Virus record (IMG/VR): IMGVR_UViG_2740892439_000005
DNA length: 5,784 nucleotides
Strand: one strand, 5' to 3'
From: a virus
Taxonomy: Duplodnaviria; Heunggongvirae; Uroviricota; Caudoviricetes
Every line of letters begins with the position of its first letter. The stretch's first letter is position 1. Of this stretch, positions 2,430-5,784 are shown piece by piece. The notes under the pieces are model-generated. The model did not search any database and had not been told where the DNA came from. It saw nothing but the letters and a program-made list of their open reading frames with translations. The position numbers were made by a program, and so were the translations under genes.

Positions 2430-2767
2430 CAGATCACCACTTCGTCAAACTGACACGAAAAATCGGTATAGGTGATATGTTCTGTCGCTGACCACGTTCG
2501 ACACACCACTCTGATTTTTCTGTTAATACCCGGCGGGCGCCAAAAAAAAGATTTATAGCCTTCATGCCGGGCTAAAAATTTTTCAAATGAATCACGTTCA
2601 TTCGCCTCAACTTTGAAATCACAGGTGAAAACGCGCAGAGAATGATTAAGTCCATTTGGACTTCGTTGCTCATAACCATCGCCAAATCTTACAGTTTTTA
2701 TCGATGGTTTATTTTCTGTTTTCATTCCATCCTCTGGTAACCAGTGAAATTCTTCCGTATTAGCCAC
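2429..2767 (-). CDS. M: Minor tail protein M (lambda gpM family), 112 aa, GTG start
   Basis: Translation contains VRFGDGYEQR...GLN...KSFFWRPP...FDEVVI, which aligns with lambda gpM (109 aa; RFGDGYSQR...KSFLWTPP...FEQVVN as I recall) at roughly 45-50 percent identity. Position between the tape measure gene and L. GTG start at 2765-2767 is preceded by GGGGGA; an alternative ATG lies at codon 15. Confidence 0.85.
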   Translation of the reverse strand: MANTEEFHWLPEDGMKTENKPSIKTVRFGDGYEQRSPNGLNHSLRVFTCDFKVEANERDSFEKFLARHEGYKSFFWRPPGINRKIRVVCRTWSATEHITYTDFSCQFDEVVI

Positions 2768-3033
2768 TTAACATTCCCCCATCACGTCGCATATTTAACA
2801 GATTGCCCTGCACCCGCTGATCAACCATCCCCATAAGTGCTTTTATTGCCTGAGGCCAATCTCTCCATTCTGGCCGTCATTTTGAATAGTGATTTGGTAT
2901 ACAGGGGCATAGGTAATATCTCCGCCTCCATTACCACTTTTACTATTAATAGCTCTGACACCAAGAGAACCATCGGAAGTTCGTGTTAATGGCATAATGG
3001 CTTCCGGACCAGCCTCACCAAAAACACCAGCCC
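2760..3033 (-). pseudogene. H: Frameshifted 3' end of the tape measure gene: the conserved C-terminal ~90 codons are split across two other reading frames (shifts near plus 3030-3034 and 2853-2857); true stop TAA at 2760-2762
   Basis: From the break after ...PQFFAFAKG, the -1 frame reads [58 protein letters not shown] and stops at 2843-2845. A further -1 frame reads PQAIKALMGMVDQRVQGNLLNMRRDGGMLSG to TAA 2760-2762, overlapping the GTG of M. The joined sequence resembles the lambda gpH C-terminus as I recall it (...NDGTNGQIGPAALKAVYDM...QMRDGGLFSGGGR). Each break is explained by loss of one base in a homopolymer (plus ccc 3031-3033; gg 2854-2855). Confidence 0.7.
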
Positions 3034-5784
3034 TTTTGCAAAAGCAAAAAATTGCGGGGAATCATAAATACCGTTCGAATACATGTTCAATGACGGAGAC
3101 TCATAAACACCGCCCTTTGCATTCGGAATAAATTTACTAATAGCACTCCCGATAGTTCCTAAAATCCCCCCAGAAGAACTGTTACTAATGCTGTCGAAAA
3201 TCCCAGTAATTGAAGCCTTTAATGCTATTCGACTAAGATCCGAAATCACGGAAGTAGCGAAAGAACGAAAATTTGCCTTGCCTGTCGTGACAAAATCACC
3301 CAGCGCATCGGTCATTCCATCAAACATCTGAGTCGTGGTTGATTTTATCTGCTCACTGATATCCTTAGTGTCATCCAGCCAGTTATTGAATCCCTGGGAG
3401 GCACCACTAACCCAGTCTCCTGCCTGAATATCGAGCTGCTCGTTTTTCTGTCTGACAATGTCTTTTTCTCGTTCCAGAGCATCATTCAGAGCCTGCATTT
3501 TCTCCTGAAAAACATGATTTGACATCCCACGGGATTTATCTGCATAGTCACGTTCAAGTTGCAGACGCTGATTGTTATATTCACGTTCAATCCGCAGTAA
3601 TTCCTGCTGGCGTTGCTGATTTTTATCGCCAACCCCATAACCAGCAATCTGAATATCATACCCCTGTTGACGATTATCAATCGAAGCCTGCAATGAATCA
3701 CGCCATGCAGCTATTTCGGCGGATTCCTTGATTAGCCTGTTATTTTTTTCAATCGCAACATTTTTCTCCATCAACGCGGTTATTTCTTCCCGGTGTAAGA
3801 GAAGCGATTTCTGATCCTGGGTTAATTTCGATGACGGTCGTGACTCCAGGTTGGCAATCTGCTGACGCCACTTAACCAGTTCCTGTTCAGTGGAACTTAA
3901 TTTAACGGTTAATTCAGTTTGTGAACTTAGTAACGCATTCTGTTGATTCAGATGATCAATCATTCGTTGGGCAGCATCATCCGAATAACCTTTCGCCTTT
4001 GGTTGCTTTGGATCTTTATAACGCTCATTTATTTGAGCGATAAGATTATTATATTCTTCCTTTGAATACTGACTCTTTAGCTTTTCCAGTTTTGCAAGTT
4101 CACTAGCTCTCTGCTGCTCCCGGGTCTGATATTGTTTTGAAAAGGCATCTGCTCTCTGTCTGAGTTCAATTCCTTCCTGTTGTCGCTTGTTGTAATCGTT
4201 TATTGATGAATTTAGTACGTCCTGAGCAATTTTTTCTGCTTGAAGTGCGCCCAATTGCTGCTTTAATCGTGCCAGCCTTTTATTTTGAGCTCCGCCATCT
4301 CCAATGCCACCTAACCCGAAAACTCCGGGTCGGGTATTTTTTTCTATTTCATCAATTTGACGGAGAACATCTGAGATTTTTTGATCAAGGGAGGCCTCAC
4401 GGCCAATATCCAGCATGGAATCCCATGCCCATTTTGCGGAGTCTGCGACAGCTTTCCATGCAGTCTCAAGATAACCAAGATTTTCTTTAATCTGGTTGGT
4501 GCGCTGGATCATTGAGGATGAGTATGCTTCTGTCGCAATGCGGGCGGCCTCCTGCTGGTTCCCTTCATCCTGTAGCGCCTTAATCTGGTTATAAGTCGCA
4601 ATTGTCAGAAAATGGTACTGATCATTAAGTTTTGATATGGCACTGACAGGATCCTTTGCAATTTCACTGAAGTCATTAACCAGTTGTTCGGTTGATATTC
4701 CTGTTACTTCGCTCGTTTTTACTATCGCTGTCGTCACTTGCTCCAGCGAACTGCTCGCTACCTTTCCCGAACGCACAAGCTGGTTTAATACTGCCGCCGC
4801 AGCGCCAGTTGTCGAATCAGCCGCATTCCCGGCACGTTGAGCTATATCGGCCAATTGCCCGCTGGTTGTCCCCAACTGATTTCCGGTAAGAATAAGAGAT
4901 TTATTAAATTCGTCCTGCTCCTGAGAGCCTTTATAGTAAGCCAGCCCTAAGACGCCAACGGCTGCTGCGGCCAGGGTAAAAGGATTAATTAATCCCAGCA
5001 CATAAGAACCAACACCTTTGATCGCCGGGCCAATCCCACCGAACATATCTTTTAGCTGGCCGCCCTGCTGCATTAACACCATAAAAGGCGACTGACCAGT
5101 GGACAACCCAACAACAATATCCGTCATTTGTGCAGGCAACATGCGCATAGCAAAAGCCGTTTGTTTTGCCGACATTCCGGTTTTGCTTAATTGAGATTGA
5201 GTAACCTCAAGCTCACTCCGCATAGCACGAAGTTTTCCAGAAAGTTCCTCATACATTTCAGGAGAGAGCATCCCCTTAGCTTTTGCTTCATTGAGCTGTT
5301 TCTGTTGTTCTACCAGACGATTAAAAGCAGTTCCGACAGGGTCAAGTTGAGCAATCAGACGTTGCAAAGCAGCAACCTGTTCATCATGCGCTTTTGCTGC
5401 TTCTCGCTCTGCCTGAGCCTCTCCGGTAAGCTCTCGCCGTGTTTCCTGTATTTTTCGGCTATAATTCTCAAACTGAGAACCATTTATTTTCCCGGATGCA
5501 AACGCAGCATTAAGTTCATCCTGCTGTTGTTCAAGATTTCTTAGCGCCGCAGCCAGAGGGTCGATCTTGTCCAGCATTCTTTGAAAGGCCTGAGCCTGCG
5601 CTTCCTGCTGGGCGGCAGCAAGTTTTCCGGCCTTCTCGGCTTCTCTCTGCGCTTGCGCAACCCCGCTCAATTCCTCTGTGGTTTCATTAAGTTTACGGAC
5701 AAGAAATTCATATTCTTCTTTATCAATAAGCCCTTTATCGAAAAATTTCTTTAATTCAGAATAGCGTCGACCGACAGTATCAAT
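2986..5784 (-). CDS. H: Tail length tape measure protein (lambda gpH homologue), 5' partial; the reading frame is open to the right window edge (the track's 894-aa ORF begins at an internal TTG), and the 3' end is prematurely terminated by a frameshift
   Basis: Minus-strand frame is open from 5784 to the stop at 2986-2988 (932 codons in the window). Contains lambda-H-like blocks: [39 protein letters not shown] (lambda: [11 protein letters not shown]...GGQSPW..LLQQGGQVKDSFGG) and [28 protein letters not shown]. Also long Gln/Glu/Lys-rich coiled-coil-like stretches and hydrophobic segments typical of tape measure proteins. The last 16 residues ([14 protein letters not shown]) look like out-of-frame translation. 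Confidence 0.9.

What the first reader, a model, noticed from the sequence alone, without database searches (positions are those of the whole stretch)
4900..5784. Tape measure N-terminal region has about three degenerate tandem repeats of ~55 aa and the protein is longer than lambda gpH
Reading the minus strand from the right edge gives three similar units: ...[40 protein letters not shown]...LDKIDPL / [55 protein letters not shown]...LIAQLDPV / [44 protein letters not shown]. These precede the conserved [10 protein letters not shown] block, which lies near the N-terminus in lambda gpH. With the frameshifts repaired, the window alone encodes about 1008 residues plus an unknown N-terminal part, against 853 for lambda gpH. 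Because tail length scales with tape measure length, an intact version would specify a tail longer than lambda's. Repeat modules are a known route to tape measure length variation.
Basis: partly seen in the sequence, partly recalled or inferred. Interest (0 to 1): 0.4.

Follow-up and report, generated by a model that had tools for sequence, protein, structure and literature searches.

The report
Three-unit repeat in prophage tape measure
The window encodes most of a Rac-type prophage tail tape measure protein whose N-terminus holds three old tandem copies of a ~73-residue helical module, which explains why it is 224 residues longer than lambda's; this is a tidy but unsurprising example of how phages vary tail-ruler length.

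Summary
The minus strand of window 5137-5784 encodes three tandem units bounded by (I/L)DP(V/L). The best off-diagonal self-alignment scores 229 against 45±9 for shuffles (z≈21) and 42-72 for other helical regions. The period is 72-80 aa, not ~55.

Near-identical intact copies in E. coli prophages give a 1077-aa protein that starts 69 codons beyond the window edge. Its first 870 nt are ≥99% identical to K-12 Rac ynaA. Residues 270-1077 align with lambda gpH 57-850, so ~213 of the 224 extra residues lie in the N-terminal stretch that holds the repeats.

No Pfam or NCBIfam model covers the unit. It occurs near the N-terminus of 428 representative tape-measure-like proteins, in 1-5 copies (none detected in lambda, one in T1). 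Copy number adds net length, and close relatives differ by whole-unit, in-register indels. The units share no DNA similarity, so the duplications are old.

A longer tail is inferred, not measured: about 36-40 tube rings against lambda's 32. T1's calibration suggests the gain may be less than proportional.

The window's own copy has two private 1-nt homopolymer deletions that wreck the last ~90 codons. Verdict: ordinary biology, correctly read.

The parts
2760..5784 (-). Tail tape measure gene (Rac/ynaA type), aa 70-1077 of a 1077-aa protein. Its 5' end (69 codons) lies beyond the right edge of the window. The 3' end is disrupted by two 1-nt deletions.
   Evidence: Translation. 99.9% DNA identity to annotated 'phage tail tape measure protein' genes in E. 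coli chromosomes. Alignment to L001. Pfam TMP_2, TMP_4 and Tape_meas_lam_C. One aa difference in 916 from the intact reference.
5572..5784 (-). Repeat unit 1 (aa 70-140 of unit aa 61-140; the first 9 residues, including IDPVG, are beyond the window edge). 80 aa, with a 7-residue longer linker than U2.
   Evidence: Unit HMM 77-92 bits, full-length match. Pairwise z 15.5 against U2 and 8.6 against U3. Weak SHOCT-like hit at aa 79-101.
5353..5571 (-). Repeat unit 2 (aa 141-213, 73 aa): [73 protein letters not shown]
   Evidence: Unit HMM 96 bits. Alignment A1.
5137..5352 (-). Repeat unit 3 (aa 214-285, 72 aa). Its last ~19 residues (…[12 protein letters not shown]) are also the start of the conserved TMP_2 core.
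   Evidence: Unit HMM 86-99 bits over all 72-73 profile positions. Overlap with Pfam TMP_2, which starts at aa 267.
4579..5193 (-). Pfam TMP_2 core (aa 267-471), the block that sits at aa 54-256 in lambda gpH.
   Evidence: PF06791 E 1.1e-81. gpH TMP_2 at 54-256. Pairwise alignment.
3031..3033 (-). Frameshift 1: GGGG in intact copies is GGG here (1-nt deletion, about codon 987).
   Evidence: Alignment to L001, exact position. Among the 719 of 5426 complete E. coli genomes that hold this segment, all listed top hits span 503 nt for the 501-nt query, so they lack the deletions.
2854..2855 (-). Frameshift 2: CCC in intact copies is CC here (a second 1-nt deletion). The two do not restore the frame.

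Best explanation
The region encodes the N-terminal part of a lambda-type (Pfam TMP_2 family) tail tape measure protein of a Rac-family E. coli prophage. Between a conserved ~60-aa N-terminal head and the conserved core (…[11 protein letters not shown]…) sit three tandem copies of a ~73-aa all-helical module: (I/L)DP, helix, invariant Gly turn, long helix plus variable linker. The last copy merges into the core. SHOWN: the copies are ancient duplications, detectable only at protein level. They account for nearly all of the 224 residues by which this protein exceeds gpH. The same module occurs in 1-5 copies in many related tape measures, with none detected in lambda. Copy number changes by whole-unit, in-register indels. 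Added units are net length that is not offset downstream of the core. INFERRED: the tape measure acts as a helical ruler inside the growing tail tube, so the extra units extend the ruler. Tube polymerisation would then stop later, giving roughly 36-40 tube rings (~150-170 nm) instead of lambda's 32 (~135 nm), or about 1.5-2.7 rings per unit. In this particular window the gene's last ~90 codons are out of frame. If those two deletions are real rather than sequencing errors, this copy cannot build a tail at all.
For: Repeat significance. Intact gene, 69 missing codons, 1077 aa. ≥99% identity to K-12 Rac ynaA. Extra length maps to the N-terminus. Unit counts are 3 (this protein, Kp ST405phi1.3, Kp 5 LV-2017), 2 (HK639, Gungnir39), 1 (Kp ST11phi8.2, TLS) and 0 (lambda). 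T1 gp38 has one unit at aa 72-138. Profile search of 1.84 billion representatives: 428 hits at E≤1e-3 and 128 at E≤1e-10, nearly all tape-measure-sized with the match in the first ~300 aa. Copy distribution in 114 full-length representatives: 0:5, 1:78, 2:18, 3:8, 4:4, 5:1. Core start against units, slope 55 aa/unit, r=0.69, p=9e-17; total length +50 aa/unit; post-core length independent of units (slope -5.7, p=0.38). Whole-unit in-register indels between relatives with 47-70% identical heads and 70-85% identical cores. Units group by position across Escherichia and Klebsiella orthologues, with younger internal duplications in the 4- and 5-unit proteins. No DNA-level repeat. Helical prediction with breaks only at the invariant Gly. 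Ruler principle and calibration: TP901-1 deletions and duplications change tail length proportionally, including an N-terminal duplication (PMC5099701); lambda has 32 rings (PMC10721106); T1 has ~34 rings at 42 Å rise for 957 aa (PMC11945409).
Against: No tail length has been measured for any phage carrying this three-unit protein. T1 has ~104 more residues than gpH, mostly N-terminal, but only ~2 more rings, where proportionality predicts ~3.9. The module may therefore fold back, or may not count fully as ruler. The tape measure inside the tube is unresolved in every structure and its stoichiometry is disputed. The AF2 model is of low confidence (pLDDT 45). Residues D, P, G and Q are invariant across deep divergence, which is more constraint than a passive spacer needs. 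The length regressions use the 150 top-scoring hits, a sample biased towards multi-copy proteins.
Confidence: 0.72

Rival explanations
1. The units are primarily docking modules, with length as a by-product. Each copy would bind a partner during assembly: the G/G-T chaperone (YdaY here), the tail terminator or completion protein, or the DNA end at the head-proximal end of the tail.
For: Invariant D4, P5, G27 and Q65 plus a conserved aromatic position across very divergent proteins. A canonical G/G-T chaperone gene with an AAAAAAG slippery site lies immediately upstream in the intact prophage. T1's N-terminal extension buys fewer rings than a pure ruler predicts. Aromatic-marked tape measure repeats have been proposed as chaperone anchors in other phages (PMC3271669, PMC5099701).
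Against: No unit was detected in lambda, yet it uses G/G-T and assembles normally. Copy number varies from 1 to 5 among close relatives, which is easier to reconcile with a spacer. No interaction data exist. This rival is not exclusive of the ruler explanation.
Confidence: 0.15
2. The units act after ejection. The N-terminal part of the tape measure contributes to the trans-envelope conduit, and extra units adapt its length or properties to the host envelope.
For: Ur-lambda cryo-ET attributes the periplasmic channel to gpH*, with models built from gpH 1-319 and 320-691 (PMC12617516).
Against: Nothing links this module to the channel. Hosts of the 1-, 2- and 3-unit phages are all enterobacteria with similar envelopes. 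The channel models were AlphaFold fits, not resolved density.
Confidence: 0.07
3. The apparent repeat is a compositional or coiled-coil artefact of an Ala/Glu/Gln/Lys-rich helical region.
For: The region attracts sub-threshold SMC, Rad50 and spectrin coiled-coil hits.
Against: z≈21 against shuffles. Other helical regions of the same protein and of gpH score 42-72 against 186-229. Unit boundaries and invariant residues recur in hundreds of proteins.
Confidence: 0.01
4. In the genome this window comes from, the gene is a decaying pseudogene and the repeats have no current function.
For: Two 1-nt deletions put the last ~90 codons out of frame. None of the listed best hits among 5426 complete E. 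coli genomes carries them. Rac-family tail modules are often decayed: K-12 ynaA is truncated and the L001 tail tube gene is annotated as frameshifted.
Against: Both deletions are in homopolymer runs, the typical signature of sequencing or assembly error. The rest of the gene differs from the intact reference at 1 residue in 916, so any decay is very recent. M, L, K and I downstream are intact ORFs.
Confidence: 0.35

Closest known systems
Bacteriophage lambda gpH (tail length tape measure protein, 853 aa; PDB 8iyk)
   Same: Same family. TMP_2 core, Tape_meas_lam_C and the C-terminal region align over 808 against 794 residues (28% identity, E 4e-79). Same gene neighbourhood: G/G-T upstream and M-L-K-I-J downstream.
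   Different: gpH goes from a ~50-aa head straight into the core and has no full unit. The window protein inserts three units, ~213 aa.
E. coli K-12 Rac prophage ynaA (tmpR), the truncated tape measure remnant
   Same: ≥99% nucleotide identity over the first 870 nt, that is, the head plus all three units.
   Different: The K-12 copy is a truncated remnant. The window carries almost the whole gene plus M, L, K, I and the start of J.
Phage T1 gp38 (957 aa; PDB 9l9p) and TLS TtpM (945 aa)
   Same: Same TMP_2 and Tape_meas_lam_C architecture, and the same N-terminal module (T1 aa 72-138; TLS aa 47-110).
   Different: One unit plus an unrelated spacer instead of three units. T1 has ~34 tube rings (PMC11945409).
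11/18-aa W/F-marked tandem units of Firmicute-phage tape measures (Belcaid et al. 2011; TP901-1, Mahony et al. 2016)
   Same: Tandem units inside a tape measure whose gain or loss changes protein length. In TP901-1 this changes tail length proportionally (PMC3271669, PMC5099701).
   Different: The unit here is ~73 aa with invariant D-P…G…Q and no 11-residue W/F marker. It sits at the extreme N-terminus in 1-5 copies rather than in a central array of ~29 copies.
Klebsiella prophage tape measures (ST405-OXA48phi1.3, ST11-VIM1phi8.2, 5 LV-2017)
   Same: Same head, units and TMP_2 core, with 1 or 3 units.
   Different: Different C-terminal part (TMP_4 but no Tape_meas_lam_C) and a different tail-tip gene set (DUF1833-type), so the protein is mosaic.

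Membership tests
Lambda-type tail tape measure protein (Pfam TMP_2 / Tape_meas_lam_C; NCBIfam TIGR01541) | TMP_2 domain above the gathering score | tested here: met
   PF06791, 274 bits against cutoff 30.2, aa 267-471.
Lambda-type tail tape measure protein (Pfam TMP_2 / Tape_meas_lam_C; NCBIfam TIGR01541) | Lambda-type C-terminal domain | tested here: met
   PF09718, 91 bits against 23 (aa 858-932). TIGR01541, 217 bits against 104.75 (aa 706-1040) on the intact copy. In the window itself the region after about aa 986 is out of frame.
Lambda-type tail tape measure protein (Pfam TMP_2 / Tape_meas_lam_C; NCBIfam TIGR01541) | Gene position between the G/G-T chaperone and the tail-tip genes M-L-K-I-J | tested here: met
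   M, L, K, I and the J start lie downstream in the window. ydaY with an AAAAAAG -1 site lies upstream in L001.
Lambda-type tail tape measure protein (Pfam TMP_2 / Tape_meas_lam_C; NCBIfam TIGR01541) | Protein length determines tail length | not testable with these tools
   No EM data found for carriers. Only lambda and T1 give calibration points.
Rac-family prophage tape measure (ynaA/tmpR) | Near-identity to K-12 Rac ynaA DNA | tested here: met
   ≥99% over 870 nt in K-12 derivatives annotated ynaA.
Belcaid-type tape measure tandem units | 11- or 18-residue period with conserved W/F markers | tested here: not met
   Period 72-80 aa. Invariant residues are D, P, G and Q. TRF finds no short-period array.
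SHOCT domain (PF09851) | Match above the Pfam gathering score, recurrent in the units | tested here: not met
   16.7 bits against cutoff 27 in U1 only. 1 of 20 units hits at E≤1.

The most novel reading that the evidence does not exclude
The ~73-aa (I/L)DP…G…(Y/F) module is an undescribed, widespread N-terminal domain family of lambda/T1-type tape measures, and its copy number (0-5) sets tail length in quantised steps. Alternatively, because T1 gains only ~2 rings from ~104 extra N-terminal residues, the module may fold back as a hairpin and count at about half the canonical 1.5 Å per residue. That would mean the simple 'length of protein = length of tail' rule does not hold uniformly along a tape measure.
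Probability: 0.25. Interest if true: 0.45.

Novelty: new variant of a known kind. Interest (0 to 1): 0.25.

Why it matters
The gene itself is a routinely annotated tape measure found in about a fifth of complete E. coli genomes, and repeats are a known way for tape measures to vary in length. The small new point is that this ~73-aa module is not modelled in Pfam or NCBIfam and was not described in the papers I could search. It forms a natural 0-5-copy series among otherwise closely related proteins. That series could be used to test how N-terminal tape-measure residues convert into tube rings. This question is still open because the tape measure inside the tube is unresolved in all lambda and T1 structures.

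Tried and rejected
(1) DNA-level repeats. Tandem Repeats Finder found none, and the direct-repeat families were short and chance-like. The unit DNA alignment shows only scattered conservation. The repeat is protein-level only.
(2) SHOCT relationship. A weak hit in U1 only, below the cutoff, and in 1 of 20 units. Rejected as membership.
(3) A divergent 'internal copy' in mid-protein. It appeared with a self-iterated HMM but is marginal with the independent A1 profile: i-E 0.027 in one relative, and none in this protein or lambda. Dropped.
(4) 3D model. AF2 gave pLDDT 45 and pTM 0.21. I used only its secondary structure and did not run fold searches on it.
(5) Copy-number polymorphism within E. 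coli. All sampled full-coverage matches span 870 bp for 870 bp (one sampled row is a 452-bp truncation), and 1063 of 1071 genomes with a match hold at least 80% of the segment. No polymorphism seen.
(6) Tail-length measurements. The vB_EcoS records come from a genomic study of clinical isolates and no measurement was found. Nothing is held on Gungnir39.
(7) The chaperone-binding map of gpH (Xu, Hendrix and Duda 2014) could not be read.
(8) Other features in 4800-5784. No Rfam family in the window, no promoter or terminator signal above shuffle expectation, and the antisense ORFs have no family.

Full report
WHAT IS IN THE WINDOW. The minus strand carries a lambda-like tail module: a tape measure gene that runs off the right edge, followed by homologues of M, L, K and I and the start of J. 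The 3.1-kb tape measure segment is 99.9% identical to annotated 'phage tail tape measure protein' genes in E. coli chromosomes. It matches 1096 of 5426 complete genomes, and 10 phage records at 98.4-99.5% identity. In an intact copy (L001, strain 13P484A) the gene is 3234 nt, or 1077 aa, and starts 207 nt beyond the window edge. The window therefore holds codons 70-1077. The first 870 nt are ≥99% identical to ynaA, the truncated tape-measure remnant of the Rac prophage of K-12. This is a Rac-family tail module.

THE WINDOW'S OWN COPY IS FRAMESHIFTED. Compared with intact copies, the window lacks one G of a GGGG run (window 3031-3033) and one C of a CCC run (2854-2855). This puts the last ~90 codons out of frame. 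Among the 719 of 5426 complete E. coli genomes that hold this segment, all listed best hits span 503 nt for the 501-nt query, so none of them carries the deletions. The deletions are either homopolymer sequencing errors or very recent decay, and I cannot tell which. Otherwise the window protein differs from the intact reference at 1 residue in 916.

CHECK OF THE OBSERVATION. A restricted self Smith-Waterman alignment (offset ≥15) of aa 1-270 scores 229, against 45.2±8.9 (max 80) in 200 shuffles, z=20.7. The window-encoded part alone scores 186. Other helical regions of this protein and of gpH score 42-72, so coiled-coil composition does not explain the signal. The units are bounded by (I/L)DP(V/L): U1 is aa 61-140 (80 aa), U2 is aa 141-213 (73 aa), and U3 is aa 214-285 (72 aa). 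Pairwise z-scores are 8.6-15.5, with 29/73, 24/70 and 21/73 identical residues. The tail of each unit ([18 protein letters not shown]) aligns with [10 protein letters not shown], the start of the Pfam TMP_2 core, so the last unit merges into the core. No repeat exists at DNA level, so the duplications are old.

WHERE THE EXTRA LENGTH LIES. TMP 270-1077 (808 aa) aligns with gpH 57-850 (794 aa) at 28% identity, E 4e-79. About 213 of the 224 extra residues are therefore in the N-terminal stretch that holds the repeats. Pfam places TMP_2 at aa 267-471 here and at 54-256 in gpH.

WHAT THE UNIT IS. No Pfam or NCBIfam model covers aa 1-266 in this protein, and no Pfam model covers the equivalent region in seven relatives. 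Only sub-threshold coiled-coil noise appears, plus one weak SHOCT hit in U1 that does not recur in other units. A 20-sequence unit alignment (A1) gives the consensus DxIDPVxAALxxLxxQQxxLxxAxxxGxLxxExYxxYSxKLxxxRxEL, then a linker, then QxAxxMRMx, with D4, P5, G27 and Q65 invariant. AlphaFold2 on the first 454 residues was of low confidence (pLDDT 45), so I do not use its 3D arrangement. It predicts helix throughout, and the breaks inside units fall only at the invariant glycine (aa 86-90, 167-170, 239-243). Each unit is thus helix, G-turn, long helix.

DISTRIBUTION AND EVOLUTION.
- The unit profile finds 428 representative proteins at E≤1e-3 and 128 at E≤1e-10 among 1.84 billion. Almost all are tape-measure-sized, with the match in the first ~300 residues.
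- Among 114 full-length representatives, 5 have no unit above my threshold, 78 have one, 18 two, 8 three, 4 four and 1 five.
- In named phages: no unit detected in lambda; one in TLS, T1 gp38 (PDB 9l9p) and Klebsiella ST11-VIM1phi8.2; two in HK639 and Erwinia Gungnir39; three in this protein, Klebsiella ST405-OXA48phi1.3 and 5 LV-2017.
- Unit count predicts where the core starts (55 aa/unit, r=0.69, p≈1e-16) and raises total length by ~50 aa/unit. The length after the core does not depend on unit count (slope -5.7, p=0.38). The sample is the 150 best hits and is biased towards multi-copy proteins.
- Relatives with 1, 2, 3 and 4 units have heads 47-70% identical and cores 70-85% identical to this protein. 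They differ by whole-unit, in-register indels.
- Units group by position across Escherichia and Klebsiella orthologues, so the three-unit array predates that split. The 4- and 5-unit proteins contain younger internal duplicates (60-67% identity).
- Within E. coli, all sampled full-coverage matches span 870 bp for 870 bp, so I saw no unit-number polymorphism. That fits the lack of DNA similarity between units.

HOW IT MOST LIKELY WORKS. Established knowledge: the tape measure is a largely helical ruler inside the growing tube. Shortening or lengthening it changes tail length proportionally (Katsura and Hendrix 1984, as cited in PMC3271669). In TP901-1 this holds for an N-terminal duplication too (PMC5099701). 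Inference: the three units extend the ruler. For calibration, lambda has 853 aa and 32 gpV rings (PMC10721106), and T1 has 957 aa and ~34 rings at 42 Å rise (PMC11945409). Scaling to 1077 aa gives 40.4 rings by lambda's ratio, 38.3 by T1's ratio, and ~36 by the two-point slope. The tube would be ~150-170 nm against ~135 nm. There is a caveat. T1's ~104 extra, mostly N-terminal, residues buy only ~2 rings, whereas proportionality predicts ~3.9. The helix-turn-helix unit may fold back and count at a lower rate. This rests on two points, one of them given as 'approximately'.

The tape measure inside the tube is unresolved in all structures, and its stoichiometry is disputed at 3 or 6 copies. The invariant residues leave room for a docking role, for instance for the G/G-T chaperone encoded just upstream, or for a post-ejection role in the trans-envelope channel proposed for gpH*. 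Neither can be tested here, and neither excludes the ruler role.

COMPARISON WITH WHAT IS KNOWN, AND NOVELTY. The protein is a clear member of the lambda-type tape measure family and of the Rac ynaA lineage. Repeats as a route to tape-measure length variation are known, but the described units are 11/18-aa W/F-marked repeats of Firmicute phages. Those authors noted that units in other tape measures remained to be found (PMC3271669). A 2026 survey addresses homorepeats (PMC13585406). I found no description of this ~73-aa module, though my literature search was limited. I rate it a new variant of a known kind, of modest interest.

OTHER FEATURES IN THE REGION. None. There is no Rfam match in the window, no promoter or terminator signal above shuffle expectation in 4800-5784, and the antisense ORFs match no family.

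Noticed in passing
window 3031-3033 and 2854-2855 (minus-strand gene): Two 1-nt deletions in homopolymer runs (GGGG→GGG, CCC→CC) put the last ~90 codons of the tape measure out of frame. None of the listed best hits among 5426 complete E. coli genomes shares them, so they are sequencing errors or very recent decay.
   Followed up: partly
L001:4961-5790 (intact relative, just beyond the window's right edge): ydaY looks like the G-type tail assembly chaperone. An AAAAAAG slippery heptamer at L001:5308 sits just before its stop, and the -1 frame stays open ~100 codons further, the classic lambda G/G-T programmed frameshift arrangement. RefSeq annotates only ydaY.
   Followed up: partly
window ~682-885 (gene I, minus strand): About 200 nt inside the I homologue do not align with L001, while the flanks are 95-99% identical. 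This looks like a mosaic joint within the tail assembly protein I gene.
   Followed up: no
L004-L006 (Klebsiella prophages) versus the window: These tape measures share the head, units and TMP_2 core with the window protein. They lack Tape_meas_lam_C and are followed by a different (DUF1833-type) tail-tip gene set, so the tape measure gene is itself mosaic between tail-tip types.
   Followed up: partly
P0065 (2 units) and Kp ST11-VIM1phi8.2 (1 unit) versus window aa 61-285: The lower-copy proteins look like in-register fusions of the front of one unit to the back of a later unit (for example …NELTGV|AKAERDAAKA…). That is the signature of unequal crossing-over between units.
   Followed up: partly
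L001:3847-4810: The tail tube gene of the otherwise intact reference prophage is annotated as frameshifted, and K-12 ynaA is truncated. Rac-family tail modules seem to be decayed often, in different places in different strains.
   Followed up: no
window 5713-5781 (aa 71-93 region of U1) and unit positions ~10-38: The helix-Gly-turn-helix motif (L..LKK..DKGLI..EEY) resembles SHOCT and a segment of ribosomal protein eL19 at motif level (sub-threshold hits). This is probably a common structural motif rather than homology.
   Followed up: partly
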